The notes: generated by a model not told the origin, from the letters alone. A stretch of 64,000 bases of DNA from a bacterium (GCA_030603245.1 JAUVYE010000001.1:1418-65417); one strand, 5' to 3'; numbered from the stretch's first letter, positions 7,984 to 50,581 are shown. Numbers and translations: made by a program.

Positions 7984-8077
7984 AGGTTTAATTTTGAATT
8001 TTTTATTTTATAATTAATAATTATACTTTGACAAAAGTTTACTTGCAATTGTTAAAATTTTGTTTATCATCTAACTT

Positions 8078-19102: not shown

Positions 19103-19561
19103 GTGAAAAACGTAAAGCATAAAACAAAAAGAAGAAGTCAAGTATTGTTTATAGCAACTCTTTTGCTTTTTTTGTTTTTTTGTTTAATTCCTGATTATAC
19201 TGAAGCTGGTTTAGTACCTTGTGGTCGTAGCGTAGACGATCCTAATACTCGAGACATAGATGAAACTGATTTTTGTACACTATGCCATCTTTTTATTCTT
19301 CTCAATAATATTTTCACTTACTTTTTCAAATTTATTCTGCCAGTCGTAGCTACTGGTTTAATTGCTTGGGGAGGATTTACTTTACTCATAGCTGGAGAAA
19401 GTAAAACTAAGTTTGAACAAGCAAAAAACATAATAACAGCTGCAGTAGTAGGATTAGTCATTATTTTGGCTTCCTGGATATTTTTAAATATGTTTTTATC
19501 TTCTATCGGAGTAGCTGAATGGACTAGATTGGGAAGCTGGTGGAAAATTGAATGCCCCTAA
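19103..19561 (+). CDS. Small VirB2/TrbC-like pilin-family membrane protein with LVPCGR...PNT...HLFIL motif (start uncertain: GTG 19103 or TTG 19145)
   Basis: The given ORF's ATG (19013) lies inside tRNA-Arg, so a downstream start is required. The protein has a basic N-region, a hydrophobic signal-like segment, the GLVPCGRSVDDPNTRDIDETDFCTLCHLFILLNNI motif and two TM helices separated by AGESKTKFEQAKNII. The same motif occurs at the C-terminus of the 880-aa protein at 27584-30226. Confidence 0.5.
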   Translation: MKNVKHKTKRRSQVLFIATLLLFLFFCLIPDYTEAGLVPCGRSVDDPNTRDIDETDFCTLCHLFILLNNIFTYFFKFILPVVATGLIAWGGFTLLIAGESKTKFEQAKNIITAAVVGLVIILASWIFLNMFLSSIGVAEWTRLGSWWKIECP

Positions 19562-25070: not shown

Positions 25071-26102
25071 TTATTGAGCGAATGGGTTTCGAGCTCCGCT
25101 TACTCCAAAATGAACGTGACAACCAGTAGATAATCCTGAACCAGGCATACCCCATCCACCACCCATTAAAGCAATACGATCACCCTGAGAAACTTTCTGT
25201 CCAACATTAACCAAGCTTTTAGCAATATGTCCATACATTGTTACAACTCCATTAGGATGTAAAATTTTAATATAGTTCCCCGCTCCTCCAAAAGCCCATT
25301 TAGAAGTAGAAGTGGTTAATTTTACTCTTAAAACCTCGCCTCCTGCAGCAGCATAAATTAGCTCATTGCATTTACCGTGACTAAAGTCAATTGCATTATA
25401 CCAGTGAAGTCCTTGAGTAATTCTGCACGGCAAAGCAATCGGACAAATAAAATAACTGGAGGCTAAAGGAACATATTGGGACACATAAAGAACAGATGGC
25501 GCAGGCATTATTCCATTAGGAATAACAAGAATATCACCAATAAAAATATCTCCTTCTGAGGAAAGACTATTAAATGCTATAATTTCTGATGTTTTTCCTT
25601 TATAAGTTTGAGCAATGTTTGAAATTATGTCTCCACTCTTAACATGATAAATCACTCCTGAAATTGGAGGAATAATCAGTTTTTTACCAAGTCTCAAAAC
25701 TGTATTTTCATTTAAATCATTAGCCCAAAGCAAACTCTTTAAAGAAATCTTAAATCTTCGGGCAATTGTTGAAAGATTGTCGCCAGACTCAACAACATAT
25801 TCAATAATTCCTTGTCTAATTTCTGACAAATCTACAGAACCAACCAAAGCTCCTAAAACCTGAGGGGACAGAGTGGTTGGAGGCAGAGAGGCTTTTAAAC
25901 TGTTTCTTTGAATTAAAAGAAAATCTGGGGATTCTAAAGAAAACTTGTTTGATGGACCTAAAAACAAATCATGTTGGCTTTTAACCTCAAAATTCTCCAT
26001 TGTAATTGGAGAATCATTGCCCAAAAGAATCAAAGATATCAATCCTAATAAGATAATCGCACTTGTGAAAATCTTTTTTCGCGACATATTTGAACTAAAC
26101 AT
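25071..26102 (-). CDS. LysM-domain M23-family peptidoglycan endopeptidase
   Basis: Two LysM repeats (YVVESGDNLSTIARRF, YHVKSGDIISNIAQTY) and C-terminal M23 motifs including HVHFGVS. Confidence 0.8.
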   Translation of the reverse strand: MFSSNMSRKKIFTSAIILLGLISLILLGNDSPITMENFEVKSQHDLFLGPSNKFSLESPDFLLIQRNSLKASLPPTTLSPQVLGALVGSVDLSEIRQGIIEYVVESGDNLSTIARRFKISLKSLLWANDLNENTVLRLGKKLIIPPISGVIYHVKSGDIISNIAQTYKGKTSEIIAFNSLSSEGDIFIGDILVIPNGIMPAPSVLYVSQYVPLASSYFICPIALPCRITQGLHWYNAIDFSHGKCNELIYAAAGGEVLRVKLTTSTSKWAFGGAGNYIKILHPNGVVTMYGHIAKSLVNVGQKVSQGDRIALMGGGWGMPGSGLSTGCHVHFGVSGARNPFAQ

Positions 26103-26759: not shown

Positions 26760-27584
26760 ATGAATCTCATATCAAAAAGTGTAGTTAAACAAGTTTTAGA
26801 CAAATACCAAGTTAGACCTTTAAAAAGATTGGGGCAGAATTTTTTAGTTAATAAAAAAGCTCTCAATGATTTTATTAATGCTTGTGATTTGAGAAAAAGT
26901 GATGTTGTTTTGGAAATTGGCCCTGGACTTGGAACAATAACTCAAGAAATAGCCAAAAAAGTAAAAACAGTTATTGCAATAGAAAAAGACAAGAAAATGT
27001 GCGAAATCATGAAAGAAACATTATCTGATTTAAATAATATAGAAATAATTAATCAAGATGTGTTGAAAATTTTCAATTCCCAATTTTCAATTTCCAATTA
27101 TAAAGTAGTAGGAAATCTTCCTTTTTATATCACAGCGCCTGTTATTAGAAAATTCTTAGAAACCAAAAATCAACCAAAAGAAATGATTTTCATGATTCAA
27201 AAAGAAGTAGGGCAAAGAATTTGTGCAAAGCCGCCGAAAATGAGTCTTTTAGCTGTATCAGTTCAATTTTATGCTAAGCCAAAAATTGTTTCGTATCTTC
27301 CAAAAAATTCTTTTTGGCCTCAACCAAAAGTAAACTCAACTATTATTAAAATAATTCCTCAAAAACAAACTATTGTTAATGCAAAATTATTTTTTGAGGT
27401 TGTAAAAGCAGGATTCGCTCATCCCAGAAAACAATTAAGAAACAATCTTTCAAAACGATTAAAAATGAACAAAGAAAAAACTGAACAATGGCTTTTGAGA
27501 AACAATATTCAGCCCAATCAAAGAGCAGAAACTTTAAAAGTTCAAGATTGGATAAATCTCACAAAAACAATTAAAATGAATTAA
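26760..27584 (+). CDS. rsmA: 16S rRNA (adenine1518/1519-N6)-dimethyltransferase
   Basis: KsgA motifs LGQNFLVN and the SAM-binding VLEIGPGLGTIT. Confidence 0.9.
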   Translation: MNLISKSVVKQVLDKYQVRPLKRLGQNFLVNKKALNDFINACDLRKSDVVLEIGPGLGTITQEIAKKVKTVIAIEKDKKMCEIMKETLSDLNNIEIINQDVLKIFNSQFSISNYKVVGNLPFYITAPVIRKFLETKNQPKEMIFMIQKEVGQRICAKPPKMSLLAVSVQFYAKPKIVSYLPKNSFWPQPKVNSTIIKIIPQKQTIVNAKLFFEVVKAGFAHPRKQLRNNLSKRLKMNKEKTEQWLLRNNIQPNQRAETLKVQDWINLTKTIKMN

Positions 27585-30226
27585 TGTCAAAAAAATCTTT
27601 TTTAAAATTTCTGTTTTTTTTGTTCTTAGTCCTCAATTTTTTAAGCTTTGGGGAATTTGTTTTAGCTTGCGAGGAAGGAGAAACTCAAGATTGCGAAACC
27701 TGCGGAGTTCAAACCTGTGATGATTGTTATGAGAAAGAAATTGATTTCGGCATAGAAATAATAATAATGACTGTTTGTGATTGGGGAAACTGTGACCCTG
27801 ATAGTCAAACTCAAGACTGTGACATTTGTGGTGTTCAAGAATGCCAGTGTGAGGGCAACTCTTGTTGGTGGGACGATTGTGATGAAACATCAAAGCCAAG
27901 GACAAAAAGAACAAGCAATTGGACTGAATACCGCTGCCAGGAAGATGGATGTGGTCAAGAATATATCCAAAAAAGAAAATGTGAAGAAACTTGTACTAGA
28001 ACTTGTTGGTGTATAGGCGGAGGGGAATGGGAATGTTCAAGCTACTCGGATTGTGATACGGATTGCGACAGCCCAGAGCCTGTAGAAGAATGTGACTTAG
28101 ATTGGCAGCTTTGTTATGGAAGCAATGAATGGAGTAGATCTGCTCGTAGTTGTAATTGTGCAGGAACATGTTTAGAAACACCAAAAAATCCAAGATACTA
28201 TAATAACCCGAACTATCCAACTGATCCTTATGAACCAGAAGAATCAGAAGATGCTAATAATATTTTTTTGCCAGTTAAATTAGATTGGGACAATGTTAAA
28301 GCATGGAAAAATGATTGGGAAGAAAATGGAGAATTAAAAGAATGTTCAGAAGATTGTTTTCAATCATATTTGATTGAAATAAGCAATACAGCTTCTGGTA
28401 ATTTCTCAAAAGCTTTGACTCAAGATTCTGAATATAATCCAACACAAGACCAAGGAGCTTGTTTCTTAAAATCGGGAATAACTCATAATTTGGACGTAAG
28501 CGCTTGTTGTAATACAAACGGTACTAATTGCAGTTCTAAAAGCAACTGGAGTTTTGATACTAAATCTGCTCCAGAACCCATTTTGCCGGCTGATTTTGAT
28601 TGGAAAGAAGAAGAAATTAAATCTGGAGTTGAAATCCCAGTATTCCTTGATTGGTGCGATGTTAATAATGCCAAATCTTTTAGAATAAAAATTCATTATA
28701 TTAAAGATGGTCAAGAACTATGCCATCCCTGGCTTGTGTCAGGACAAAGCTGTGACTCTGAGATAATTACAACAGAAAACAGGCCTCCCCCATATTATGA
28801 TCCCACTAAAGATATTCTATATTCTGATTTTCAAGATAATGAGGGATTTTTTACTAAAGATACAGAATACAGGTGGGAATTAGCAACTTGTTTTAATGAA
28901 AATGGAACAAATTGTAGTGATTTTGGTCAAAAATGGGGATTTGATACTACTTTGGTTTCATTACCCTATCTTCAATTAGAGTCTCCGCCCAATGACCCTA
29001 ATGGTAAACAAGCAGTAGGTTTTCCAGTCATTTTAGAATGGAAACATGAACCAGGAATGAATTCTTTTGTTTATGATGTTTATAAAGAAAATCCAGGAGA
29101 ACTTACTGGCAATCTTAATCTTTCCCAAAAAGTTTTTGATTATCCAACGCTTTCTTTAAATACTTTTTATACTTGGAGAGTTAAGCCTTGTTGGGATTAT
29201 GAAGGATTAGATTGCGAAGATTGGCCAGCAGGCCAAGAATGGGTTTTTAAAACCACTGGAGCTGCACCAAATTTAATTTATCCAGAAAATAATGATTCTA
29301 ATGTTCCAATTCCAATAAAATTAGAGTGGGAAGGTATGTCAGGCGCTAAATCATATAAATATTGGGTATATTCTAGTGGAGAGTTAATTGCAAACAACAT
29401 TGTTGAAGACAGTTCTGTTTTAATTAAATACGATCCTGTTTCAAAAGAACCCAAGCAAGAAACTAATTATTCCTGGCAAATTGCAACCTGTGCTGATGAA
29501 AAGGGGGAAATTTGTGGCCTTCCTACAAGTCTGTGGAAATTTACAACCTTTAAACTTTCTCCTCCATCAAACTTATTACCAGAAAATAATGAAACAGTTT
29601 TTACCTATCAAATGCCTAAAAGCTTTTCTTGGGATTCAGATGCAAAATATTTTAGATTTACTTTAGATTATATTCAAAAAGCAGAACAAGAGGTTGGGAA
29701 TTGTGCTCTTGAAAGACAAAAAAAAATCACTGATAATAATCTTTATTCTCTTTCTTTAAGTTGCTTGGGAGAATACCAATGGCAAGTTCAAGCTTGTTTA
29801 GATGAAAACTGCGATCAAGAAGGAACCGCAAGCTCTGTTCAGAATTTCATCTTAGATCAAGCTACTCCTCCCACTCAATTTGGTTTAGTTCCTTGTGGCA
29901 GAAATTCAGACAATCCAAACACTCCTTGGAATGAAAGAGACAGTTGTCAATTTAAGCATCTTTTTATTCTTTTTAAAAATATTATTGATTTTCTTTTATG
30001 GAGAGTAACTTTGATTATTTTGCTTTTACTAGTCATAGCTACAGCAATAATATTTTACTTCTCAATAGGCGCCCCTGCTCTTATAATTGACATCAGAGGT
30101 GTTTGGAGAGCAGCTGGAAAGGGTTATGCAATTATTTTTATGTCTTGGATAATTATTAATCTTGTTTTAAATATTTTAGGATATCAAATTGGAATTTTTG
30201 GCCAGTGGTGGCAAATTAATTTCTAA
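27584..30226 (+). CDS. Secreted 880-aa Cys-rich repeat protein (putative adhesin/tip module) fused to a C-terminal VirB2-like pilin domain
   Basis: Signal peptide, then an N-terminal CxxC-rich region with duplicated TQDC(E/D)(T/I)CGVQxC. About 5 tandem ~100-aa modules follow, each ending W-x-[VI]-x-[AP]-C-x3-G-x2-C...W-x-F-x-T (FN3-like by pattern). The last ~115 aa are GLVPCGRNSDNPNTPWNERDSCQFKHLFILFKNI plus two TM helices, a paralogue of the 19103-19561 protein. Confidence 0.5.
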   Translation: MSKKSFLKFLFFLFLVLNFLSFGEFVLACEEGETQDCETCGVQTCDDCYEKEIDFGIEIIIMTVCDWGNCDPDSQTQDCDICGVQECQCEGNSCWWDDCDETSKPRTKRTSNWTEYRCQEDGCGQEYIQKRKCEETCTRTCWCIGGGEWECSSYSDCDTDCDSPEPVEECDLDWQLCYGSNEWSRSARSCNCAGTCLETPKNPRYYNNPNYPTDPYEPEESEDANNIFLPVKLDWDNVKAWKNDWEENGELKECSEDCFQSYLIEISNTASGNFSKALTQDSEYNPTQDQGACFLKSGITHNLDVSACCNTNGTNCSSKSNWSFDTKSAPEPILPADFDWKEEEIKSGVEIPVFLDWCDVNNAKSFRIKIHYIKDGQELCHPWLVSGQSCDSEIITTENRPPPYYDPTKDILYSDFQDNEGFFTKDTEYRWELATCFNENGTNCSDFGQKWGFDTTLVSLPYLQLESPPNDPNGKQAVGFPVILEWKHEPGMNSFVYDVYKENPGELTGNLNLSQKVFDYPTLSLNTFYTWRVKPCWDYEGLDCEDWPAGQEWVFKTTGAAPNLIYPENNDSNVPIPIKLEWEGMSGAKSYKYWVYSSGELIANNIVEDSSVLIKYDPVSKEPKQETNYSWQIATCADEKGEICGLPTSLWKFTTFKLSPPSNLLPENNETVFTYQMPKSFSWDSDAKYFRFTLDYIQKAEQEVGNCALERQKKITDNNLYSLSLSCLGEYQWQVQACLDENCDQEGTASSVQNFILDQATPPTQFGLVPCGRNSDNPNTPWNERDSCQFKHLFILFKNIIDFLLWRVTLIILLLLVIATAIIFYFSIGAPALIIDIRGVWRAAGKGYAIIFMSWIIINLVLNILGYQIGIFGQWWQINF

Positions 30227-30230: not shown

Positions 30231-30911
30231 ATGAGTAAAGTAATAAAAATCCTTGTCGTTTTAGTAATTGTTCTTTTGCTTATTATTGTTTTGGGCAATT
30301 ATTTTTTACAACAACAACTAAAACAAGTAGGAGGAGTAGATTTTTCAGAAATAATATCCCAAATTGAAGGATTGTCATCTGAGCAAATTTTAAAATCTCA
30401 AGCAGAAAAAGAGAGTAGTAAAAAATTCATTAGTCCAGATAAAAAACTAAAAATAGAGTATTCTTTGAGGTGGATAGAAACACCGAGCGAAAGTTTGGAA
30501 AGAATCGTTCCGAATGAACAAATTCAAAAATACAACTTAACCAATTTGCTTTTAGCTCAACGATTCGAAATTAGTGGAGAATTTGCTCAATTAATTATTG
30601 ACCAGGCATTTTTTGACATCCAAAAGTCTTTTGAGCAAATTATTGATGAAATGCAGAAAGCTAATCTTGAACAGGGATGGAATATGGAAGTTATTGAATC
30701 AAAAACTGAAAACAATGAAATTATTTTTGAAGCAAGGTATGAAAAAAGCAAAAGCCATAGTGTTTATTCCAAAGAAAAGATAATATTTCTTGAACCAGAA
30801 GAAAACAATAAAAAAGCTTATTTAATTAGCTTTATTACTCTTAATAAAGATTGGTTAAAATTTAAAGAAGAGGCAAACAAAATCTTTGAATCTGTTGAAA
30901 TAAGTCAATAA
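30231..30911 (+). CDS. Hypothetical N-terminally membrane-anchored protein
   Basis: Single N-terminal TM (ILVVLVIVLLLIIVLG) followed by a soluble domain. The listed ORF start at 30189 overlaps the upstream gene, so the ATG at 30231 is preferred. Confidence 0.35.
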   Translation: MSKVIKILVVLVIVLLLIIVLGNYFLQQQLKQVGGVDFSEIISQIEGLSSEQILKSQAEKESSKKFISPDKKLKIEYSLRWIETPSESLERIVPNEQIQKYNLTNLLLAQRFEISGEFAQLIIDQAFFDIQKSFEQIIDEMQKANLEQGWNMEVIESKTENNEIIFEARYEKSKSHSVYSKEKIIFLEPEENNKKAYLISFITLNKDWLKFKEEANKIFESVEISQ

Positions 30912-30972
30912 ATTGCTTTATTCTTGACAAATATAAAAAATAAGGTAAAAAGAGAGTAGAAAGTGTTAAAAA

Positions 30973-31707
30973 TTGAATAAAGGAAAGCAAGATAAAACAT
31001 TTGGCAATTTCAACAAATCCACGATGATTACAGCTATTGTTATAACAATTATCGCAATAGGCAGTATTGGTTACTACACCATATTCTACAAACCAAGCCC
31101 ATCAGGACCACCCACCATTCCAGCAACCTCACCAGCCAACATTGGTAAACAAACGGATCCTACTACAGAAAGCACTGAAACAACCTCTGAGCTAATAAAT
31201 ACAACCTCTCCCGAGCCTGAGATATCTAATATTACAGATACTTCTACTGTTTCTGAAGATGAACTAAATGCAACTCAACCCGAAATACCAGAACCTGATT
31301 CTGCAATCATCACAATGAACGTTTCTGATCTCCATGATCTCTATATAGATGCTTATTTCACCTACGACAGAAGAGAAGCGAAAGACAAGATAGAAAATCT
31401 AACTGGTAAGGTCATTAGAGTAAGAGGGGTTTTCAGGATGTCGGCAAGAAAAAAAGCAGAAAACAATGAAACCTATGAAATAGTAATCCTGTTTGGAACG
31501 AATAATGAAAGTAATCCCAAAGACATCTTTATCTACTTACCTTTTACCGAGGAGGTCCTCCAAGAAGTAGCTGCTATAAAATATCCAGATGTAGTTGTTG
31601 TCCAGGGAGAATTCTATCCAGGACCACCTGAACCTTTGCCATTTTATCCTCCTAAGATTGGATACAGTATAGTTGCACGTTTGAAGAATTGCCAATTAGT
31701 ACCTTAA
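30973..31707 (+). CDS. Membrane-anchored Thr/Ser/Pro-rich surface protein with C-terminal OB-fold (tRNA_anti-like/BOF-type) domain
   Basis: TM anchor, a low-complexity T/S/P/E linker, then a domain with LTGKVIRVRGVF...YEIVILFG typical of OB-fold BOF/tRNA_anti-like modules. Start is TTG at 30973 or ATG at 31022. Confidence 0.4.
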   Translation: MNKGKQDKTFGNFNKSTMITAIVITIIAIGSIGYYTIFYKPSPSGPPTIPATSPANIGKQTDPTTESTETTSELINTTSPEPEISNITDTSTVSEDELNATQPEIPEPDSAIITMNVSDLHDLYIDAYFTYDRREAKDKIENLTGKVIRVRGVFRMSARKKAENNETYEIVILFGTNNESNPKDIFIYLPFTEEVLQEVAAIKYPDVVVVQGEFYPGPPEPLPFYPPKIGYSIVARLKNCQLVP

Positions 31708-31794: not shown

Positions 31795-32736
31795 ATGAAA
31801 AAGCTTTACATAAGTAAAAAACTCTTTTTCTTTTTAACACTATTGGTGGTTTTGGGTATTGCTTCTAATGCTTTGGCTTTAGAGTTAAATTGGCCTGTTT
31901 CCCCAGGAAAAACTGAACTGACTGAAAAAAGCAATATTTCAGAAATGGTTAAATACTTCTATGAGTGGGGAATATCTTTGGGTGGAATAGCAGTATTTTT
32001 TTCTTTAATAATGGCTGGTTTTAAATATTTAACTTCAGTGGGAAACGAAAACAAAATGAGAGAGGCTAGAGACAGAATTAACTCTTCTCTTTTGGGACTT
32101 TTGCTTCTTTTATCTTCCTTTCTTATTCTTAATACTATTAACCCTGAACTAACTACTTTAAGAATGCCTGATGATATAAAATCTGCTTCTCAAAATCTGA
32201 TACCTATAGACGTAGGTAAACCAGATACTTCTGATCCTTGTAAAAAAGTAATTGTCTATAGTGAGACTAATTTTCAAGGTAATTCATTTGAGATTCTACC
32301 GGGACTAACGTCTGGGGACCTATCTGCTACTGCTAAAATAGGAGGGGAAGCTCTCTCAATTGAGATTTTTGGCTTTTGTAAGGCAGAACTATATTCATCA
32401 AAAAACTGTTGGTGGAAAGCAGACCTAATGACCACAATTTACACTAGCTTGCCTGATATTGCTTCTGTATACCTAAACGATCCTGTTGTTTGTGTTAGAA
32501 ATTTAGCAGGAATCACTTCTTCGCCATGTGATGAGAACTGTTCTAAGTGTAGTAAAGAAATAGATTGTATAACTAGTTCTTCTAATTGTATTTGGCAAAA
32601 CTACCTTTGTATTGAATCAACATGCGATACAAATTGTAGTGAATGTACTACGTTCGCGGACTGTATTTCGAGTTGGGCTGAGTCTGGTTGTGTCTGGACC
32701 CCTTATGAAACATGTGAGCCAGAACTGTTTGAGTAA
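31795..32736 (+). CDS. VirB2/TrbC-like pilin-family protein with C-terminal Cys-rich duplicated module
   Basis: Signal peptide, then a two-TM hairpin (GGIAVFFSLIMAGFKYLTSVGNENKMREARDRINSSLLGLLLLLSSFLIL) matching the TM1-AG-loop-TM2 pattern of the other two pilin-like domains. C-terminal ~190 aa contain repeated C(D)xNCS(K/E)C...DCI(T/S)S...C(I/V)W units. Confidence 0.45.
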   Translation: MKKLYISKKLFFFLTLLVVLGIASNALALELNWPVSPGKTELTEKSNISEMVKYFYEWGISLGGIAVFFSLIMAGFKYLTSVGNENKMREARDRINSSLLGLLLLLSSFLILNTINPELTTLRMPDDIKSASQNLIPIDVGKPDTSDPCKKVIVYSETNFQGNSFEILPGLTSGDLSATAKIGGEALSIEIFGFCKAELYSSKNCWWKADLMTTIYTSLPDIASVYLNDPVVCVRNLAGITSSPCDENCSKCSKEIDCITSSSNCIWQNYLCIESTCDTNCSECTTFADCISSWAESGCVWTPYETCEPELFE

Positions 32737-32763: not shown

Positions 32764-35700
32764 ATGCCCGAAAAATTCAAAAGTTTTTTCTCTAAAATAA
32801 TAACAGATAAAAGATTAAAAATTGCTCTTTTCTCTTTTATTGTTTTATTCAGTATTTTTATTCCTTTAAAACGCGCTGATGCTATTTGGGGAATCGGAGA
32901 TATCGGGCTTTTTGATTTGGCTCAAACGCAATTAGATGCTTTAGATTTTGTAGATAGCGTAATTTTGAGATTAGTTATCTTTATTTTTGTCCTTATTGTA
33001 GAATCAGAGATTTTTATTTTTACCGCAGCCAATCTTTTACAATGGGCAATGAATCTACCAATAAATATTGGGATCGGTGCCACAAAAAACCTTCTTGTTG
33101 CCTCGGGCTGGCAATTTACTCTTGGTCTAACTAATCTCTTCTTCATTTTAGCCCTCGTGATTATTGCCTTAGCTCATATTTTGGGATTAAGTACTTTTGA
33201 AATGAAAAAAGCTCTGCCAAAGCTAATTATAATTGCTCTTTTGGTGAATTTTAGTTTAGTTTTTATTGGAATGTTTGTAGATATTGTCAATATCTTTCAG
33301 AATGCTATTTTAGATGCGCTCGGAAAAGATTTGGTTACCTTAGCTATCCAGCCACTTATAACTAGCGCTAAAAGCGTTGCTGCCTGGTTTGTTCTTATTC
33401 CTACCACCTATTTGATTACTGCTCTAATTCCTTTTGGCAATGTTATTGCAGCTGTAGCGGTTGGAAGCACAATCCTTACTGATATTGTATCTGGCGGTAT
33501 CTTGCTTAAGGGTCTGTTTTTAATAATTATAAATTTGCTTATTGGAACCATCTTCTTATTCTATTTCGTCTTTTTCTTAATGAGAATAGCTATGATTTGG
33601 ATTTTGGCTATTTTTGCTCCTTTGGCTTTTTTCAGCTATATTCTGCCTCAAACTCAAGGTGTTTGGAGAGAATGGCTCAAAACTCTCTCAGAATGGTTAA
33701 CCTTAGGAATAGTTGCAATTTTCCTAACAGGTTTAGGATTAAAATTATTTGCAACAACCGGAGACAATGCTATTCTTGACTGGGGAGGAGATATAAATAC
33801 AGGAAGAGGTTCTTTACCAGCTTTTATTTATAATTATCTGTTTTTGCTTGTTTATATGGGAATAGCTGCTTATTACAGTATAAAATATACTCCCCAAATG
33901 GCTAATACCTTATTAGATTATGGAAAAGGTTTTGCAGGTGGTGTTAGAAAAATAGCAACTACAAGAACAATGAAAAGAGATGTTTGGGGGCCAGCAGCAG
34001 AACAATTGGCTGATACGGAAAAGTGGGGTCAACGATTAATAGGAAGGGCTAAAGAAGCAGAAATAGAGGGGAAAATAGGAAGGGCAATGTTTATGAGATG
34101 GGCTGGGAGAGGTGCTGGGGGATTAGGCAAAGCGGTTGGTACAGCCACCAAACCGTTTAGACCAGGTCTGATTGAATATGCGGCTCAACAAAGAAGAACT
34201 GCCAAACCAAAGGGCTGGGATCAAATGTCTGTTGCTGATAAGTCCAATTATATTAATGCTCTAACACAAGATAAAGAAAAAATGGTTTTAGCAAGTCAAA
34301 TGGCGACCGAAGGCACTTTTGCTCATGCTGGAAATGAATTCCAAGAGCAAATACTTGGAATAGCAAAAGGTTTTTCAAAAGATGATAGAAATAAGGCGTT
34401 GTATGGAAAAGAAATTGGAGATATTTATGATGTAATTCCAGACGGTGTTACTCTAGAGTCTGAACTCGATCTTAAAGCAACAAAACAAGACAAAGAAGAA
34501 CTCAGAAAAAAAATAGAAGGTAAGGCAAAAGAAATAACCGCCAATGCTGGTTTACCAGAAGATCAATATACGCAGAATTTGGATTTAGCTGCTGCCGTTC
34601 TAAGAATAAAAGCAATGAAAACAGCTGATTTGGTTAAGATGAAAAAAGCTTCTCTTACCTCCATGGCTGGCAGATTAGCTTCTCATGAAATGACCAGTCA
34701 ACAAATACAAAGAATTTATAATACCTTTGGCAGAGATACAATAGATGATATATTCAAGGGCGATGGCGGGCTTAATGATATCTTTGAAAACAAAAAACAA
34801 AAAGAAGGACAAAAACTCCTTGATCAAGCGTATCGCCGAAATCCTGCACTTGTTCACTTTTTTGCTAATACTCCTGCAGGTAGAGCGATGAACTGGAGCG
34901 GACTTAAATATATGGATAGGAACGAAAACAATAAAATAGATTTTGATAAATTTAAAGAAAGATTGTCAGAAGAAGAAAGAGAAAGAGAAGAAGAAAAAGA
35001 AAAAGAAGCAGCAGTAGTGCCTAAACCAGTTTCTAGAGTAAAGCAATTTGAAAAAGATATATTGTCAAAATTAGCAGAACAAAAGGAAATCAAGGCACAA
35101 ATTTCAGAACATAAAAAGGAATTGAGAGGGGTAAAAACAGCTGCAACAAGAATAGACGTAGAAAATAATATTAAAGAAAAAGAAAAAACCCTTAAAATTA
35201 ATCAGGCAGAAATTAAAAAACTTCAAAAGAGTTATTCAGAAGAATGGAAAGCAGAAAAAATAGCACTCACCGAGGCAGCAGCTGAAACTGAAGAACCAAA
35301 AGCAAAACTTTTGAGCGAGGTTGAAAAACTAAAAGCATTAGATAAAGCAGCTGAAAAAATAGAGTCTGATAACGCTCTCTTTATATCTAAGTTAGAAGAT
35401 AGGGAGAAGGTTTCTAAATTAACAGAAAAAGAACAAGAAGCATATAAACAATACAAAGAAGCCTATAATAGCGCGTTTACCGAAAGAAAAGAAATAAAGA
35501 GCAAACTTGATGCATCAGAAAAGTATGCTAATAAAATATCTCTAAGACTAAAGAATATTCGAGGCATAGAAAACAATTTAGAAATAACTAAGAAAGAAGC
35601 TTTGACCTCTGGAAATTTAGAAAAAGTGAAAAATGCAGAGCTTGCCATGGAACATCTGAAACAAGAAAAAACTTCTATCGAAAAGATTTTAGCAACATCA

Positions 35701-36555
35701 ACCCCAGAAGAAATGCTTAATAAAGAAAAAGGAGTTGATATTATGCAGGAGAGATTAAAAGAATTTAATCAAAATCCATTAGTAGTACAAGCCAAAAGAG
35801 ATGTACGAAAGCTGAAACAAAAAATAAGGTTAACTCAAGATAAAACAGAAAAAACTAGACTCCGAAAAGATTTATCTAGTCATAAAGAAAGATATTCTTC
35901 AGTATTCGAAATTGCTCCAAAACTAGAAAAAGCTTACAGAGAACAAAAAAGAGGATTGCCAAAGACAAAAGGTGCACTAGAAAAATTACAAACCCAAAAA
36001 TTAACAGCAATTAGTAATCTGAATTTGAAAAAATCAAAAGATTTAGAATTAAAAATAGAAAATCAGGAAAAATTAGCAGATAGTTCACGCTACAGATTGT
36101 CTGTATTGTTACCAGGCGAGATTGACAGATTGATGGACGTCGTACAAGAAGAAAAAGTAAAAGGCACCGTTCCGTTTATTCCGCGACCGTCAAAAACTCC
36201 TCCGTCGACAACAACACCAACCACACCATCAGATCCACAGTCTCCGCCACCCCTATCCTCACCGCCACCACCAGACGAAATTCCTCCTGAGGATTTAGAA
36301 AAAATCAGGAAAGAATTCAAAACAAAAACAGAAAGAGTACTGAAAGACATCTCCAGCTTCGAAGAACTGAATAAGGCGCTAGATGATCTTGGAGAGATAC
36401 AGGGCAGCAAAAAACTTTATTCGACAAAAGAACTTAAAGAAATAATTAAGGATATTAGAATTGGAAAGAAAACTCTCTCTCATGTAACAAGAGAGGGAGG
36501 GCTAAGAAGAGTGGTAAGAAAATTGATTAGCTTAGAAAAAAAGAATACACGTTAA
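32764..36555 (+). CDS. Giant VirB6/TrbL-like polytopic membrane protein with ~800-aa coiled-coil and Pro-rich C-terminal extension
   Basis: The first ~390 aa carry at least 8 TM helices; the VirB6-like call rests on this topology and the neighbouring T4SS genes. Long K/E-rich heptad coiled coil follows. Pro/Thr/Ser-rich segment TPPSTTTPTTPSDPQSPPPLSSPPPPDEIPPE at about nt 36180-36300. Confidence 0.45.
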   Translation: MPEKFKSFFSKIITDKRLKIALFSFIVLFSIFIPLKRADAIWGIGDIGLFDLAQTQLDALDFVDSVILRLVIFIFVLIVESEIFIFTAANLLQWAMNLPINIGIGATKNLLVASGWQFTLGLTNLFFILALVIIALAHILGLSTFEMKKALPKLIIIALLVNFSLVFIGMFVDIVNIFQNAILDALGKDLVTLAIQPLITSAKSVAAWFVLIPTTYLITALIPFGNVIAAVAVGSTILTDIVSGGILLKGLFLIIINLLIGTIFLFYFVFFLMRIAMIWILAIFAPLAFFSYILPQTQGVWREWLKTLSEWLTLGIVAIFLTGLGLKLFATTGDNAILDWGGDINTGRGSLPAFIYNYLFLLVYMGIAAYYSIKYTPQMANTLLDYGKGFAGGVRKIATTRTMKRDVWGPAAEQLADTEKWGQRLIGRAKEAEIEGKIGRAMFMRWAGRGAGGLGKAVGTATKPFRPGLIEYAAQQRRTAKPKGWDQMSVADKSNYINALTQDKEKMVLASQMATEGTFAHAGNEFQEQILGIAKGFSKDDRNKALYGKEIGDIYDVIPDGVTLESELDLKATKQDKEELRKKIEGKAKEITANAGLPEDQYTQNLDLAAAVLRIKAMKTADLVKMKKASLTSMAGRLASHEMTSQQIQRIYNTFGRDTIDDIFKGDGGLNDIFENKKQKEGQKLLDQAYRRNPALVHFFANTPAGRAMNWSGLKYMDRNENNKIDFDKFKERLSEEEREREEEKEKEAAVVPKPVSRVKQFEKDILSKLAEQKEIKAQISEHKKELRGVKTAATRIDVENNIKEKEKTLKINQAEIKKLQKSYSEEWKAEKIALTEAAAETEEPKAKLLSEVEKLKALDKAAEKIESDNALFISKLEDREKVSKLTEKEQEAYKQYKEAYNSAFTERKEIKSKLDASEKYANKISLRLKNIRGIENNLEITKKEALTSGNLEKVKNAELAMEHLKQEKTSIEKILATSTPEEMLNKEKGVDIMQERLKEFNQNPLVVQAKRDVRKLKQKIRLTQDKTEKTRLRKDLSSHKERYSSVFEIAPKLEKAYREQKRGLPKTKGALEKLQTQKLTAISNLNLKKSKDLELKIENQEKLADSSRYRLSVLLPGEIDRLMDVVQEEKVKGTVPFIPRPSKTPPSTTTPTTPSDPQSPPPLSSPPPPDEIPPEDLEKIRKEFKTKTERVLKDISSFEELNKALDDLGEIQGSKKLYSTKELKEIIKDIRIGKKTLSHVTREGGLRRVVRKLISLEKKNTR

Positions 36556-37537: not shown

Positions 37538-37945
37538 ATGAGATTTACTGTTCCTCAATTTATTGAGCGCGAAGCAAAAATAGTTGGTCCATTAACTTTT
37601 AGACAGTTTATTTTTATTGCAATTGCTGGCGCTATTTGCTTTTTTATTTATAGTATTGCTCCTTTTTATGTGTTTGTAATAGCCTGTGTTATTTTTGGTG
37701 GGAGTTCCTTGGCTTTGGCATTTTTAAAAGTACAAGGAAGATCCTTGCCCGTTGTTTTATCAAATCTTCTAAGGTTTAATTTTGCTCCCAAAATGTATCT
37801 TTGGAAAAAAAGCCAAGTCCCAATAAAAATTTTGAAAAAAGAAACAGTGGTGCAATCAGAAAAAGAACAAGAAACCCCTTTAAAAATAGCTGAAAAGAGT
37901 CAATTAAAAAAAATAAGGACTGAAATTGAAACAAGACCAGAATAA
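37538..37945 (+). CDS. PrgI-family / VirB3-like small membrane protein
   Basis: N-terminus MRFTVPQFIEREAKIVGPLTFRQFIFIAIAG matches the PrgI-family consensus (VPkdl...ki.g.LTfRQfiyl) followed by a TM hairpin. Confidence 0.55.
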   Translation: MRFTVPQFIEREAKIVGPLTFRQFIFIAIAGAICFFIYSIAPFYVFVIACVIFGGSSLALAFLKVQGRSLPVVLSNLLRFNFAPKMYLWKKSQVPIKILKKETVVQSEKEQETPLKIAEKSQLKKIRTEIETRPE

Positions 37946-38579
37946 TATGGTTAAAGCATCAACTCAACAATTTTTAGAAGTTAAAGAAATTAAACAAGGA
38001 GTCGTTGTTTTAAAAAACAAAGCTTTGAGAGGAGTATTAATGGTTTCCTCTTTAAACTTTGCCTTGAAATCTAAAGATGAACAAAATGCTACTATTTACC
38101 AATTCCAAAGCTTTTTGAATTCCTTAGACTTTCCTCTTCAAACATTAGTTCAATCTCGAAAACTCAATATTACTGGATATTTAGATAAATTAAAGGAATT
38201 AGAAAAAGAGCAAAAAAACGAACTCTTAAAAACTCAAACAGCGGAATACAGAAATTTTATTAAAGAATTGATTGTTGGGAGCTCTATTATGTCTAAAAAT
38301 TTCTTTGTTATAGTTCCTTTTGTTTCAATTAAAATTCCTGGCATTACTTCAAAGGGCTCTGGAAAAACACTTGCTAAATCAATCGATGATCAATTTCAAA
38401 GAGCAAAATCTCAACTTTGGCAAAGAATGGAATTTGTATCTATGGGATTAAGAAGGTGTGGATTAAAGTGTATTCCCTTAAATACCACTGAGTTAATTGA
38501 GCTTTTCTGGTCATTACATCATCCAGAAGAAGCTGAAATAGGATATTATCCTGAAATACCTCCTGAATTAATAAAATGA
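37926..38579 (+). CDS. Hypothetical T4SS-associated protein
   Basis: 217 aa. Overlaps the upstream gene by 20 nt and the downstream VirB4 by 4 nt (translational coupling). No motifs. Confidence 0.35.
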   Translation: MKQDQNNMVKASTQQFLEVKEIKQGVVVLKNKALRGVLMVSSLNFALKSKDEQNATIYQFQSFLNSLDFPLQTLVQSRKLNITGYLDKLKELEKEQKNELLKTQTAEYRNFIKELIVGSSIMSKNFFVIVPFVSIKIPGITSKGSGKTLAKSIDDQFQRAKSQLWQRMEFVSMGLRRCGLKCIPLNTTELIELFWSLHHPEEAEIGYYPEIPPELIK

Positions 38580-40378
38580 AAATACCTTTTTTAAAAAAGA
38601 AAAGAACATATCAATTGGTTAAGGAAGATACCAGTAAGATTTTTGAAAAAAAGGCAATGGAGCTTAACGACATCATTGCCCCTTCTTCAATTACTATTTC
38701 TTCTGACAACTTAAAGCTTGGCAAAATGTTTGCTAAATCTTTTTTCATTTTTTCCTATCCCAGATATTTAAGTACTGGCTGGTTTTCTCCAATCATTAAC
38801 CTTGACGATCCAATGGATATTTCCATTTTTGTTCACCCGATTGAAACAGGAACGATTTTAAAACAATTAAGAAGAAGGGTGACTGAAGTTCAGGCCGAGA
38901 TTTCAGAAAGACAGGAAAAGGGATTAATCAGAGATCCTGTTTTACAAACAGCTTATCAGGATTTAGAAACTTTAAGAGACCGGCTCCAGACAGCTCAAGA
39001 AAGAATGTTTAAATTAGGCATCTATTTAACTACTTATGGCAAATCAGAACAAGAATTAAAAAACATTGAGAACACGCTAAGGTCAATGTTAGAATCTCGC
39101 TTAATATACATTAAACCTGCTCTTTATCAACAAAGAGAAGGTTTTAATTCTTGTGCTCCTTATGGATTAGATCAACTTCAAGTTCATACTTCAATGAACA
39201 CAGGACCTCTTTCTTCTGTTTTTCCTTTTGCTTCATTTGATTTAAGTTCAAACGAAGGAATCTTATATGGAATAAACAGACATAACAATTCTTTAATTCT
39301 TTTTGATAGATTTAGTTTAGAAAATGCGAATAGTATTTTATTTGCGAAGAGTGGAAGTGGAAAGTCATATGCAGTCAAATTAGAAGTTCTACGCTCTTTA
39401 ATGATAGGGGTTGATGTAATTATCCTTGATCCTGAAAATGAATATGAATTCTTATCTGATGCTGTGGGTGGTTCTTTCTTTAATATTTCTTTAGGATCTG
39501 CAAATCACATTAATCCTTTTGATTTGCCCACTCCAAGAAAAGATGAAAAACCATCTGATATTTTAAGATCTAATATTATTAATTTAGTTGGTTTAATACG
39601 AGTTATGTTAGGAGGGTTAACTCCTGAAGAAGATTCTATTATGGACCAAGCTCTTACTGAAACCTATGCTGCTAAAGACATTACTATTAAAAGCGATCCA
39701 AGTACTTGGAAAGAGAATGTTCCCTTAATGGAAGATTTAGAAGCAATTCTCAACACTATGGAAGGAACTGATTCTTTAGTAAGAAGATTAAGAAAATTTA
39801 CCAAAGGCACATTCAGTGAATTCTTTAATCAAAAAACTAATATTTCAACTGACAATCCTTTAATTGTATTTGGAATCAGAGATATGGAAGACGAATTAAG
39901 GCCAATCGCAATGTTTATTGTTATGCGTTATATCTGGAATAAAATCAGGTCTGAGCTTAAAAAAAGAATTTTGGTCGTAGATGAAGCCTGGTGGATAATG
40001 CAATCAGAAGATGGAGCTTCCTTTTTATATGGTATGGCTAAAAGAGCCAGAAAATATTGGCTAGGGGTAACCACTATTACCCAGGATGTGGGAGATTTTA
40101 TGAAATCTGAATATGGAAAACCTATTATTACTAACTCTTCTTTACAAATTTTATTAAAACAATCTCCAGCCACAATTGATTTGGTAAAGAAAACCTTTAA
40201 TCTGACTGAAGAAGAAAAATATTTATTATTAGAAGCTGAAGTGGGGGAAGGTATATTTTTTGCAGGACAAAAACATGTAGCAATTAAAGTAGTTGCTTCG
40301 TATACTGAAGATCAAATTATTACCACTGACCCAGAACAGGTATTGAAAATTAAAAAAGCAAAAGAAGAATCAATTTAA
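38576..40378 (+). CDS. VirB4/TrbE/CagE-family type IV secretion ATPase (short, Gram-positive/archaeal-type form)
   Basis: N-terminal VirB4 region (IAPSSITISSDNLKLGKMF...YPRYLSTGW), Walker A FAKSGSGKSYAVK, Walker B with the VirB4-typical DEAW (ILVVDEAWWIM), and downstream GVTTITQD. Confidence 0.8.
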   Translation: MKIPFLKKKRTYQLVKEDTSKIFEKKAMELNDIIAPSSITISSDNLKLGKMFAKSFFIFSYPRYLSTGWFSPIINLDDPMDISIFVHPIETGTILKQLRRRVTEVQAEISERQEKGLIRDPVLQTAYQDLETLRDRLQTAQERMFKLGIYLTTYGKSEQELKNIENTLRSMLESRLIYIKPALYQQREGFNSCAPYGLDQLQVHTSMNTGPLSSVFPFASFDLSSNEGILYGINRHNNSLILFDRFSLENANSILFAKSGSGKSYAVKLEVLRSLMIGVDVIILDPENEYEFLSDAVGGSFFNISLGSANHINPFDLPTPRKDEKPSDILRSNIINLVGLIRVMLGGLTPEEDSIMDQALTETYAAKDITIKSDPSTWKENVPLMEDLEAILNTMEGTDSLVRRLRKFTKGTFSEFFNQKTNISTDNPLIVFGIRDMEDELRPIAMFIVMRYIWNKIRSELKKRILVVDEAWWIMQSEDGASFLYGMAKRARKYWLGVTTITQDVGDFMKSEYGKPIITNSSLQILLKQSPATIDLVKKTFNLTEEEKYLLLEAEVGEGIFFAGQKHVAIKVVASYTEDQIITTDPEQVLKIKKAKEESI

Positions 40379-40833
40379 GAAGGTTTAACAACCACCTTTC
40401 TTTCATCTCTTTCACCAATACTCTCTGTAATAACCCCACTTCTTTCAGCCAACTCCATATGAACAATTCTTCTTTCAAAAGCGCGCATTGGACTTAGCGC
40501 TTTTTCTTTTTTGGTCAAAACCACATCATCAGCAACAGAATTGGCTAATTCTTTCAAATACTCGGCTTTCTTTTTCTTGTAATCATTAATATCAACGTTA
40601 ACATAGAATAATTCTTCTGTTTTTTTTCTTAAAATAATTTTCAAAAGATGCTGAATGTCAGCCAAGGTTTGACCTCTTTCTCCAATCAAAATTTGAGGGT
40701 CTTCAGTTTTAACCTTAATCAAAAGAGTATTTTCTTCTTGGGTCGAAAAATCAAGACTAACGTCAAAAGTGGTTTTTTGAAAAAACTCTTTAGTAATTTT
40801 TCTTATTTTTTCCAAACCTTCTTTTGAAATCAT
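40375..40833 (-). CDS. jag: KhpB/Jag RNA-binding protein (KH + R3H)
   Basis: KH-like (ILIGERGQTLADIQHLL) and R3H-like C-terminal regions. Conserved position downstream of yidC. Confidence 0.7.
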   Translation of the reverse strand: MISKEGLEKIRKITKEFFQKTTFDVSLDFSTQEENTLLIKVKTEDPQILIGERGQTLADIQHLLKIILRKKTEELFYVNVDINDYKKKKAEYLKELANSVADDVVLTKKEKALSPMRAFERRIVHMELAERSGVITESIGERDERKVVVKPS

Positions 40834-41516: not shown

Positions 41517-41863
41517 TATTTATTATTAATTATTTTCGCTTTTTTAAAAAGCTTACTAATCATTTCTTTTATCTCTTTAAAATCTTTTAACTCTAATCCT
41601 GGACTTGCTATGATAATGACGTCTACTCCTTTTTGGATTTTTTTAAGATTCAAATAAACTATTTCTCTAAGTTTTCTTTTTATTTTATTTCTAGTAACAG
41701 CTTTTTTAGAAAACTTTTTAGATACTACAAAGGTAAAGCGCGATTCGTTTAAATCATTGGATAATATTTTTAAGATTAAAAGATCTTGTTTAAAAATCCT
41801 TCCTTTTTCAAATACTTTTTGAATATCTTTATTTTTTTTGAGTCGGTTAATCTTTGCTAACAT
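41516..41863 (-). CDS. rnpA: Ribonuclease P protein component
   Basis: 115-aa basic protein with the RnpA-like RNR-type motif (FTFVVSKKFSKKAVTRNKIKRKLRE). rpmH-rnpA synteny. Confidence 0.8.
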   Translation of the reverse strand: MLAKINRLKKNKDIQKVFEKGRIFKQDLLILKILSNDLNESRFTFVVSKKFSKKAVTRNKIKRKLREIVYLNLKKIQKGVDVIIIASPGLELKDFKEIKEMISKLFKKAKIINNK

Positions 41864-50417: not shown

Positions 50418-50447
50418 AATTTGCTATTATATTAATACTAACACACA

Positions 50448-50580: not shown

Positions 50581-50581
50581 C

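What the first reader, a model, noticed from the sequence alone, without database searches (positions are those of the whole stretch)
27584..30226. 880-aa secreted Cys-rich repeat protein whose last ~115 aa form a VirB2-like pilin domain (adhesin or tip module fused to a pilin anchor)
The architecture runs, in order:
- signal peptide
- a CxxC-rich N-terminal region with an internal duplication of TQDC(E/D)(T/I)CGVQxC
- five tandem ~100-aa modules with conserved aromatic positions and a Cys pair (...YxW...C...G..C...WxFxT)
- GLVPCGRNSDNPNTPWNERDSCQFKHLFILF followed by two hydrophobic helices (about nt 29860-30226)

This C-terminus is paralogous to the whole small protein at 19103-19561. A pilin-fold C-terminus on an adhesin-sized extracellular protein suggests a specialised minor or tip subunit incorporated at the filament end. 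Such a fusion is not a standard T4SS component.
Basis: seen in the sequence. Interest (0 to 1): 0.8.

Follow-up and report, generated by a model that had tools for sequence, protein, structure and literature searches.

The report
Surface stalk protein ending in T4SS pilin
An ultrasmall (Patescibacteria) bacterium encodes, as the first gene of its type IV secretion operon, a long disulfide-rich stalk protein whose last 117 residues are a secretion-system pilin, making it a plausible missing host-binding part of a machine these parasites depend on.

Summary
ORF 27584-30226 (880 aa) has six parts:
- a Sec signal peptide
- a variable Cys-rich head with a 12-aa duplication
- a Cys-rich beta domain
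- five mutually homologous FN3/Ig-like modules
- a C-terminal two-helix module that is homologous to the small protein at 19103-19561 (84 bits against at most 20 bits for shuffles)

The small protein and 18 of 20 C-termini tested (17 of 18 orthologue C-termini) match Pfam PF18895, the Patescibacteria VirB2-like T4SS pilin. The window's own C-terminus does not match it directly.

The gene overlaps rsmA by one base and opens a conserved, origin-proximal T4SS-like operon: VirB6-like, PrgI/VirB3, TraC-like, VirB4. That order is kept in every related species locus long enough to show it.

The pilin module is the best-conserved part of the protein. In public data the same module always sits at the extreme C-terminus. 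It occurs alone, or behind one to many Ig modules, lectin and PKD domains, M23 peptidases or C39-like peptidases.

Best reading: a modular T4SS pilin that displays a host-binding head. Whether it enters a filament or stays membrane-anchored is inferred, not shown. The link to canonical VirB2 is remote, and fold searches of the hairpin were non-specific.

I found no paper describing such fusions. I rate it a new variant of a known kind.

The parts
27584..27667 (+). Sec-type signal peptide (aa 1-28). The start codon overlaps the rsmA stop (TAATG).
   Evidence: Hydropathy peak at aa 4-30 and a VLA|C site. Orthologues all begin with a comparable signal peptide. The overlap is read.
27668..27913 (+). 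Cys-rich head A (aa 29-110) with an internal duplication (27681-27712 / 27807-27838). Variable region.
   Evidence: Duplication at 78% DNA identity. Only 34% alignment occupancy among 59 orthologues. Low model confidence, pLDDT 39-61.
27914..28258 (+). Cys-rich beta domain B (aa 111-225).
   Evidence: Predicted beta strands, pLDDT 73-95 (block means). Conserved Cys and Trp columns. No Pfam or PDB sequence match.
28259..28567 (+). FN3/Ig-like module 1 (aa 226-328).
   Evidence: Module HMM cross-hits. Beta sandwich with pLDDT above 90.
28628..28951 (+). FN3/Ig-like module 2 (aa 349-456), with an insertion.
29009..29263 (+). FN3/Ig-like module 3 (aa 476-560).
   Evidence: Invariant Cys536 and Cys544.
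29297..29554 (+). FN3/Ig-like module 4 (aa 572-657).
   Evidence: Invariant Cys636 and Cys644.
29573..29860 (+). FN3/Ig-like module 5 (aa 664-759).
29873..30226 (+). PF18895-type (VirB2-like) pilin module (aa 764-880) plus stop codon. It consists of a disulfide head (GLVPCGR...C..KH), two long hydrophobic helices (790-826, 831-864), a basic loop and a GIFGxWWxI tail.
   Evidence: It is the most conserved region of the protein.
19103..19561 (+). Stand-alone small pilin (152 aa): signal peptide followed directly by the same pilin module.
   Evidence: PF18895 at 34.8 bits, above the 26.6-bit threshold. Alignment A2. Flanked by tRNA genes.
31795..32736 (+). Second modular pilin (313 aa), in the reverse arrangement: signal peptide, pilin hairpin, then a ~195-aa Cys-rich C-terminal extension.
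   Evidence: PF18895 E=1.5e-4, 22.2 bits, below threshold. Pilin HMM E=0.0016. The orthologue in L001 carries a precomputed PF18895 hit. Sequence.
30231..31707 (+). Two conserved bitopic membrane proteins (226 and 244 aa) between the two modular pilins. Function unknown.
   Evidence: No family hits. g240 is conserved in many related loci.
32764..36555 (+). 1263-aa polytopic membrane protein with a long coiled-coil tail. It holds the VirB6/PrgH-like position in the locus.
   Evidence: Sequence. Conserved downstream of the big gene in 36 of 40 loci. No Pfam hit, so the VirB6 assignment is by position and topology only.
37538..37945 (+). PrgI (VirB3-like) protein.
   Evidence: PF12666 at 36.1 bits.
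37926..38579 (+). TraC-like protein.
   Evidence: Orthologues carry PF26593 TraC-like.
38576..40378 (+). VirB4-type ATPase.
   Evidence: PF19044 P-loop_TraG at 88 bits, plus AAA_10 and DUF87.
26760..27584 (+). rsmA/ksgA rRNA dimethyltransferase, overlapping the start of the big gene by one base.
   Evidence: PF00398. The adjacency is conserved in 27 of 40 loci and in L001-L003.

Best explanation
The gene encodes a modular T4SS pilin: a host-binding surface protein built onto a VirB2-like (PF18895) pilin module.

**Proposed sequence of events**
1. The signal peptide sends the roughly 735-aa ectodomain through Sec, where its 48 cysteines form disulfides.
2. The two C-terminal helices insert as a hairpin, with the basic loop in the cytoplasm and both ends outside, like the membrane pool of ordinary pilins.
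3. The T4SS encoded downstream (VirB6-like, VirB3/PrgI, VirB4) handles this hairpin as it handles the small pilins.
4. The protein is built into the pilus or conduit in small numbers, or as the first (tip) subunit.
5. It then holds a variable Cys-rich head some tens of nanometres out on a stalk of five FN3-like modules, to recognise the host cell.

**Shown:** the domain architecture, homology of the C-terminus to PF18895 pilins, operon membership and synteny, stronger conservation of the pilin module than of the ectodomain, and the existence of the same module alone or behind other passenger domains.

**Inferred:** the membrane topology, handling by the T4SS, incorporation into a filament, and host binding.
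For: **Homology**
- BLASTP E=2e-17.
- The orthologue-derived pilin HMM scores the small pilin at 84 bits, against at most 20 bits for shuffles.
- The small pilin passes PF18895. Orthologue C-termini do too.
- The Southlakia PF18895 pilins are essential. Some also match TrbC/VirB2 PF04956 at about 1e-6 (PMC10633639 supplement).

**Context**
- The order rsmA - this gene - VirB6-like - PrgI - TraC-like - VirB4 - khpB - yidC holds here.
- It also holds in orthologues down to 34% identity.
- VirB4 lies 4-9 kb downstream in 26 of 40 species loci. The other 14 loci end first.
- The VirB6-like gene is present in 36 of 40, and in all loci with more than 3.5 kb downstream.

**Constraint**
- The pilin module has 60% mean identity to the query and 1.35 bits entropy. 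The FN3 modules have 41-55% and 1.6-2.1 bits.
- Invariant positions, including the head Cys pair, His, Gly847, Trp855 and Trp875, are shared with the stand-alone pilin.

**Topology**
- Basic residues lie in the inter-helix loop (sequence).
- A neighbouring pilin carries its Cys-rich extension on the C-terminal side instead. That only makes sense if both ends of the hairpin are outside.

**Modularity**
- In all 150 best database matches the module is at the extreme C-terminus of proteins of 142-1668 aa.
- Stand-alone forms (P0083, P0141, P0166) and a one-module form (P0109) exist.
- Other passengers are Peptidase_M23, Peptidase_C39_2 and Laminin_G_3/PKD/Big_7.
- The membrane-distal head is the most variable part.

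**Literature**
- The 2025 survey found VirB2-like pilins but 'no adhesins such as PrgB' in Patescibacteria T4SS loci (PMC12102498).
- An 8.6-nm tube joins a patescibacterial parasite to its host in cryo-ET (PMC11880426).
Against: - No experiment shows that PF18895 proteins form a filament. The FEMS review speaks only of a 'potential to elaborate conjugative pili'.
- The window's own C-terminus does not reach PF18895 even at E<=1.
- TrbC/VirB2 matches are insignificant.
- A 735-aa appendage on a pilin may be sterically hard to pack in a helical pilus.
- A stalk of this length would equally serve a membrane-anchored protein that must cross the wall and S-layer.
- High conservation of the hairpin could reflect docking to the T4SS rather than polymerisation.
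Confidence: 0.5

Rival explanations
1. It is a membrane-anchored adhesin. The pilin-derived hairpin serves only as a membrane anchor, or as a docking element beside the T4SS channel. The FN3 stalk carries the head across the wall and S-layer. The protein never polymerises.
For: - The architecture (signal peptide, stalk, C-terminal hydrophobic hairpin) fits a surface-anchored protein.
- Passengers such as M23 and C39-like peptidases could act on the cell's own wall to let the T4SS through. The 2025 survey counts such M23/LysM proteins as VirB1 homologues.
- No PF18895 filament has been demonstrated.
- Bulky passengers of up to about 1500 aa are hard to fit in a pilus.
Against: - The hairpin, its extracellular head motif and its C-terminal tail are more conserved than the ectodomain. 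They also share invariant residues with stand-alone pilins. That is more than an anchor needs.
- The predicted helices are 34-37 residues long, longer than a membrane span.
- The same module occurs alone as a small secreted-type pilin.
Confidence: 0.33
2. It is a precursor that is cut at the junction before GLVPCG. Cleavage would release a soluble Cys-rich FN3 protein and leave an ordinary small pilin.
For: In alignment A2 the junction in the big protein coincides with the signal-peptidase site region of the small pilin (TEA|GLVPCG). In stand-alone forms the cleavage site lies 4-12 residues upstream of GLVPCG. Canonical T4SS pilins undergo proteolytic maturation (established knowledge of VirB2/TrbC).
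Against: - There is no hydrophobic h-region or AxA motif before the junction in the big proteins. The residues there are PPTQF, PPGKG, KGG and similar.
- No dedicated maturation peptidase was recognised among the annotated neighbours.
- The junction residues are not conserved, as a processing site would be.
Confidence: 0.07
3. The C-terminal similarity is compositional (two hydrophobic helices). The protein is an ordinary surface protein unrelated to the T4SS that merely lies nearby.
For: The window protein has no direct Pfam hit. Helical hairpins are structurally non-specific.
Against: - 84 bits against at most 20 bits for segment-preserving shuffles.
- The shared non-hydrophobic head motif with invariant Pro, Cys, Thr, Glu, Cys and His.
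- Strict synteny with T4SS genes across 40 species.
Confidence: 0.02

Closest known systems
Patescibacteria VirB2-like T4SS pilins (Pfam PF18895 T4SS_pilin), e.g. the essential pilin array SEML1_0014-0019 of Southlakia epibionticum
   Same: The C-terminal module is homologous: a head with a Cys pair, two hydrophobic helices and a short tail. It is encoded with VirB3/PrgI, VirB4 and a VirB6-like gene, close to dnaA.
   Different: The described pilins are 125-185 aa, with just a signal peptide and the pilin. Here about 735 aa of Cys-rich head and five FN3-like modules lie between the signal peptide and the pilin. The papers I read do not mention such fusions.
Canonical conjugative pilins VirB2/TrbC/TraA (Pfam PF04956; T-pilus, F-pilus)
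   Same: A signal peptide followed by a two-helix hydrophobic hairpin with a basic loop. The gene is linked to a VirB4 ATPase. In solved pili both termini face outward and the loop lines the lumen (established knowledge). An N-terminal passenger would therefore be displayed on the outside.
   Different: There is no significant sequence match: E=0.39 for the small paralogue and none for this protein. The structural match is insignificant (8fai_A, E=4.7). There is no evidence of cyclisation or of filament formation. The organism is a monoderm.
Modular type IV pilins of type 4 pili (e.g. PilB of Streptococcus sanguinis, PMC8179133)
   Same: The same design principle: a functional or adhesive module grafted onto a pilin module, so that a filament gains binding properties.
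   Different: This is an unrelated pilin fold and machinery. T4P pilins have an N-terminal class III signal peptide and alpha-1 helix, and carry the graft at the C-terminus. Here the pilin module is a C-terminal VirB2-type hairpin and the passenger is N-terminal. The resemblance is analogy, not homology.
VirB5-type tip adhesins and Gram-positive T4SS adhesins (PrgB)
   Same: The proposed role is the same: contact with the target cell for a T4SS.
   Different: No sequence relationship was detected; the Pfam scan found no families. VirB5 and PrgB are separate proteins, not pilin fusions. PrgB is sortase-anchored, whereas this protein has no LPXTG motif.
Tandem FN3/Ig-like stalks of surface proteins (Pfam PF25788 Ig_Rha78A_N, PF00041 fn3)
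   Same: The five modules are predicted beta sandwiches. Foldseek aligns them to tandem-FN3 receptors at E down to 6e-15. Orthologue modules pass PF25788 (P0071, 41.5 bits).
   Different: Each module carries a conserved short disulfide loop (for example C536-C544 and C636-C644). The window protein itself has no Pfam hit.

Membership tests
PF18895 T4SS_pilin (Patescibacteria VirB2-like pilin) | Direct match of this protein to the Pfam HMM at or above the gathering score (26.6 bits) | tested here: not met
   No PF18895 hit at E<=1, either for the full protein or for its C-terminal 121 aa alone (member 1).
PF18895 T4SS_pilin (Patescibacteria VirB2-like pilin) | Homology to bona fide family members, by transitive or profile evidence | tested here: met
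   - 18 of 20 aligned C-termini hit PF18895, best E=1.2e-8.
- P0071 scores 29.5 bits and P0051 27.4 bits, both above threshold.
- The window's small paralogue scores 34.8 bits.
- The HMM of orthologue C-termini scores that paralogue at 84 bits, against at most 20 bits for shuffles.
PF18895 T4SS_pilin (Patescibacteria VirB2-like pilin) | An exported N-terminus followed by two hydrophobic alpha helices joined by a short loop | tested here: met
   Hydropathy. AF2 helices at 790-826 and 831-864 in the full model, and at 31-67 and 72-105 in the domain model.
PF18895 T4SS_pilin (Patescibacteria VirB2-like pilin) | Genomic association with VirB4, VirB3/PrgI and VirB6-like genes | tested here: met
   Window genes. 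Conserved synteny in L001-L043.
PF18895 T4SS_pilin (Patescibacteria VirB2-like pilin) | A small single-domain protein (about 100-190 aa) | tested here: not met
   The protein is 880 aa and the pilin module is only its last 117 aa.
Canonical VirB2/TrbC pilins (PF04956) | Significant match to the TrbC/VirB2 profile | tested here: not met
   No hit for this protein. E=0.39 for the small paralogue. One of 20 C-termini at E=0.15.
Canonical VirB2/TrbC pilins (PF04956) | Specific structural similarity to solved conjugative pilins | tested here: inconclusive
Canonical VirB2/TrbC pilins (PF04956) | Polymerises into an extracellular filament assembled by the T4SS | not testable with these tools
   This needs microscopy or biochemistry. 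The literature calls it a potential only.
FN3/Ig-like domain repeats (PF25788, PF00041) | Beta-sandwich fold in tandem copies | tested here: met
   AF2 pLDDT above 90 across the modules. Foldseek matches tandem FN3 ectodomains at E=6e-15. Orthologues pass PF25788. Module HMMs cross-hit one another.
Sortase-anchored Gram-positive adhesins | C-terminal LPXTG motif, then a single hydrophobic segment, then a basic tail | tested here: not met
   There is no LPXTG in the sequence. The C-terminus has two long helices and an uncharged aromatic tail.
Modular type IV (T4P) pilins | N-terminal class III signal peptide and alpha-1 pilin helix, with the extra module grafted C-terminally | tested here: not met
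   The N-terminus is an ordinary Sec signal peptide and the pilin module is C-terminal. The protein is therefore analogous to these pilins, not a member of the family.
VirB5/TraC-type pilus-tip proteins | Sequence match to VirB5-family profiles | tested here: not met
   No Pfam or NCBIfam family at E<=1 for the full protein.

The most novel reading that the evidence does not exclude
Patescibacteria of the Paceibacteria/Parcubacteria type build their T4SS conduit from VirB2-like pilins that come in a modular series. The series runs from a bare pilin, through a pilin with one Ig module, to this five-module Cys-rich form. Other versions carry lectins or peptidoglycan hydrolases. On this reading the filament itself carries the host-recognition and wall-breaching functions. 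These would be the first T4SS (VirB2-type) pilins known to carry grafted domains. They would also be the missing adhesin of a secretion system that is essential for the epibiotic lifestyle.
Probability: 0.4. Interest if true: 0.8.

Novelty: new variant of a known kind. Interest (0 to 1): 0.6.

Why it matters
**Open question.** The T4SS of Patescibacteria is essential for epibiotic growth in the one species tested. Its function is described as completely unknown. A 3,035-genome survey reported pilins but no adhesins.

**What this adds.** A conserved first gene of the operon joins a variable disulfide-rich head and an FN3 stalk to the pilin module. That gives a concrete, testable candidate for how the machine finds or grips the host. 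The variable head is also an obvious marker for host-range studies.

**Wider pattern.** The same pilin module carries M23 and C39-like peptidases and lectin domains in related proteins. The filament or its base may therefore be a general display platform. This parallels the 'modular pilin' idea established for type 4 pili, but on an unrelated pilin fold.

**Limit.** The finding rests on computation alone. Databases already label some orthologues 'pilin'.

Tried and rejected
1. Self-BLAST of the protein found no repeats at E<=1. Profile HMMs were needed to show the five modules.
2. Direct Pfam, NCBIfam and PHROGs scans of the 880-aa protein returned nothing.
3. A sequence-profile search of the pilin alignment against PDB gave only a chance hit, to a magnesium transporter at E=0.66.
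5. A PDB sequence search with the Cys-rich N-terminal 202 aa gave no hit, so the head remains unclassified.
6. Sortase anchoring was rejected because there is no LPXTG motif.
7. A lipoprotein signal was considered because of VLA|C. It was rejected as a family feature, since orthologues lack a conserved lipobox.
8. Compositional artefact was rejected by the shuffle controls.
9. Literature searches for PF18895, VirB2-like pilins in Patescibacteria, modular pilins and cryo-ET of the T4SS found no description of fused T4SS pilins. The Nealsonbacteria paper does not mention pilins at all.
The Cys-rich domain B could therefore not be searched on its own.


Full report
**1. What is in the sequence**

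The ORF 27584..30226 (+) encodes 880 aa. Its ATG overlaps the stop of rsmA/ksgA by one base (TAATG). The next gene starts 4 nt after its stop. No terminator-like site lies on the + strand before 31707.

Hydropathy shows only three hydrophobic stretches: an N-terminal signal peptide (aa ~4-28) and two C-terminal segments (aa ~793-822 and ~844-866). All 48 cysteines lie between them, and 27 of these are in aa 29-196.

TQDCETCGVQTC lies at aa 34-45 and TQDCDICGVQEC at aa 76-87. The DNA copies are 78% identical and 126 nt apart.

**2. The repeat modules**

Self-BLAST does not see them. I aligned 60 family members (A1) and built an HMM for each proposed module. Each HMM recognises the other modules in the query. 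Examples are module 1 against module 4 at 7.7e-13, module 3 against module 4 at 4.6e-17, and module 1 against module 5 at 2.9e-5.

AlphaFold2 on A1 gives mean pLDDT 83, with the five modules mostly above 90 and all-beta. Foldseek against PDB aligns the chain to tandem FN3/Ig ectodomains such as gp130, contactins and PTP-sigma, at E down to 6e-15.

Orthologue modules pass Pfam PF25788 (Ig_Rha78A_N; P0071 at 41.5 bits) and touch fn3 below threshold. Each module keeps a short conserved Cys pair.

Residues 111-225 form a further confident beta-rich, Cys-rich domain. It has no Pfam or PDB sequence match. Residues 29-110 are poorly modelled and are present in only about a third of orthologues.

**3. 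The C-terminal module**

Residues 764-880 align over their whole length with the mature part of the small protein at 19103-19561. BLASTP gives E=2e-17 and 32% identity.

An HMM built only from the C-termini of the orthologues scores the small protein at 84 bits. That corresponds to E=2e-25 among 281 six-frame ORFs of the window. The maximum for 2000 full shuffles was 15 bits, and for shuffles that keep each segment's composition 20 bits.

The alignment includes the polar head GLVPCGR...T...E...C..(K/C)H, with invariant Pro, Cys, Thr, Glu, Cys and His. It also includes the WW tail.

The small protein matches Pfam PF18895 T4SS_pilin at 34.8 bits, above the 26.6-bit threshold. The window's big protein does not hit PF18895 directly, even at E<=1. 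However, 18 of 20 aligned C-termini do, and two orthologues pass the threshold.

AF2 predicts two long helices, 790-826 and 831-864.

The link from PF18895 to canonical VirB2 is weak in my own tests:
- PF04956 gives E=0.39 and 0.15.
- T-pilus VirB2 (8fai_A) ranks second in Foldseek but at E=4.7.

It is supported indirectly. Southlakia pilins match both PF18895 and PF04956 at about 1e-6 (PMC10633639 supplement).

**4. Context**

Downstream lie, in order:
- two bitopic proteins
- a 313-aa protein with a pilin hairpin followed by a Cys-rich C-terminal extension
- a 1263-aa polytopic protein in the VirB6 position
- PrgI/VirB3
- a TraC-like protein
- a VirB4 ATPase
- khpB, yidC and rnpA, then dnaA and dnaN

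The window is about 33% GC. Orthologues are labelled Nealsonbacteria, Paceibacterota or Parcubacteria.

The same order holds for an orthologue at 57% identity (L001) and one at 34% identity (L002). Across the 40 species-level loci:
- VirB4 lies 4-9 kb downstream in 26. The remaining loci end before that point.
- The VirB6-like gene is present in 36, and in every locus with more than 3.5 kb of downstream sequence.
- rsmA is immediately upstream in 27.

This fits the report that Patescibacteria T4SS loci are chromosomal, origin-proximal and carry VirB2-like pilins (PMC12102498).

**5. The fusion in a wider frame**

A profile of the pilin module, searched against 1.84 billion representatives, finds 8482 proteins at E<=1e-3 and 179 at E<=1e-30. 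In all 150 best matches the module ends at the protein's C-terminus. Their lengths range from 142 to 1668 aa.

Inspection shows several forms:
- genuine stand-alone pilins with their own signal peptide (P0083, P0141, P0166)
- a form with one FN3-like module (P0109)
- fragments of larger proteins

Other passengers also occur:
- Peptidase_C39_2 in P0031 and, per its precomputed annotation, P0038
- Peptidase_M23 in P0080
- an ALK/LTK glycine-rich domain with Big_7, Laminin_G_3 and PKD domains in P0197
- unrelated Ig-rich ectodomains in L042 and L043

Within the family of the window protein, the pilin module is the most conserved region (60% identity to the query, 1.35 bits entropy). The distal head is the least conserved.

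**6. How it most likely works**

Shown: the architecture, the homology, the operon membership, the conservation pattern and the modularity.

Inferred steps:
1. Sec export and signal-peptide cleavage, then disulfide formation outside the cell.
2. Insertion of the hairpin with both ends outside. This is supported by the basic loop, and by the neighbouring pilin whose Cys-rich extension is C-terminal.
3. Recognition by the VirB4/VirB6 machinery, like the small pilins.
4. Sparse or tip incorporation, so that the FN3 stalk presents the variable head to the host.

In solved conjugative pili both pilin termini face outward (established knowledge). An N-terminal passenger is therefore topologically compatible.

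The main rival is that the hairpin is only an anchor or docking element and the stalk merely spans the wall. I cannot separate the two models computationally. The strong constraint on the hairpin and its identity with stand-alone pilins tilt me to the first (0.5 against 0.33). Processing at the junction (0.07) lacks a recognisable cleavage motif. A compositional artefact is excluded.

**7. Comparison and novelty**

The protein is a homologue of PF18895 pilins but fails the 'small single-domain' character of the described members. It is not demonstrably a member of canonical VirB2/TrbC. It resembles in principle, but is unrelated to, the modular type IV pilins of type 4 pili (PMC8179133).

NCBI already names some orthologues 'pilin', for example MBZ1348509.1 at 855 aa.

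I found no paper that describes T4SS pilins with grafted domains. The 2025 survey states that no adhesins were detected. I therefore rate it a new variant of a known kind, with interest 0.6. It is a solid, conserved, testable candidate for the host-contact element of an essential but functionally unknown machine. It rests on computation only.

Noticed in passing
window 5463-10006: A cluster of five genes: PlsY, a PcrB/GGGP-synthase-like protein, a polyprenyl synthetase, a UbiA-family prenyltransferase and a geranylgeranyl-reductase-like flavoprotein. The set resembles an archaeal-type ether-lipid pathway sitting in a patescibacterial genome.
   Followed up: no
window 31795-32736: A 313-aa protein with a signal peptide, a pilin hairpin (PF18895 below threshold; its orthologue in L001 is annotated PF18895) and a ~195-aa Cys-rich C-terminal extension. 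This is the mirror arrangement of the 880-aa protein, which implies that both ends of the hairpin are extracellular.
   Followed up: partly
window 19103-19561: The small pilin has two extra cysteines relative to the big protein's module: CTLCH in place of CQFKH, and a C-terminal ...KIECP. These could tie the tail to the head by a disulfide, a possible stand-in for the head-to-tail cyclisation of some conjugative pilins. This is speculation from the alignment only. The gene sits between tRNA-Arg and tRNA-Lys, next to rpsO.
   Followed up: no
window 42185-44879 and 40375-41863: dnaA, dnaN and the rnpA-yidC-khpB group lie directly after the T4SS-like locus. The locus is therefore origin-proximal, as reported for many Patescibacteria.
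   Followed up: partly
window 25071-26102 (-): A LysM + Peptidase_M23 protein lies just upstream of rsmA and is conserved at that place in nearly all related loci. The 2025 survey counts such proteins as VirB1 homologues in Paceibacteria.
   Followed up: no
window 30231-31707: Two bitopic membrane proteins (226 and 244 aa) lie between the two modular pilins and match no family. The first is conserved in many related loci. Its size and topology would suit a VirB8/PrgL-like component, but this was not tested.
   Followed up: no
L042 481-3957; L043 2-1585: Proteins with a closely related pilin C-terminus (about 40% identity) but an unrelated ectodomain: a poly-Pro linker, Ig-like repeats and PKD-like repeats. 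They show that the pilin module is reused as a C-terminal carrier.
   Followed up: partly
window 49473-51886 (-): A ComEA-like protein (HHH plus lamin-tail domain) lies next to a T2SSE/PilB-type ATPase. These are type 4 pilus or competence genes, separate from the T4SS locus.
   Followed up: no
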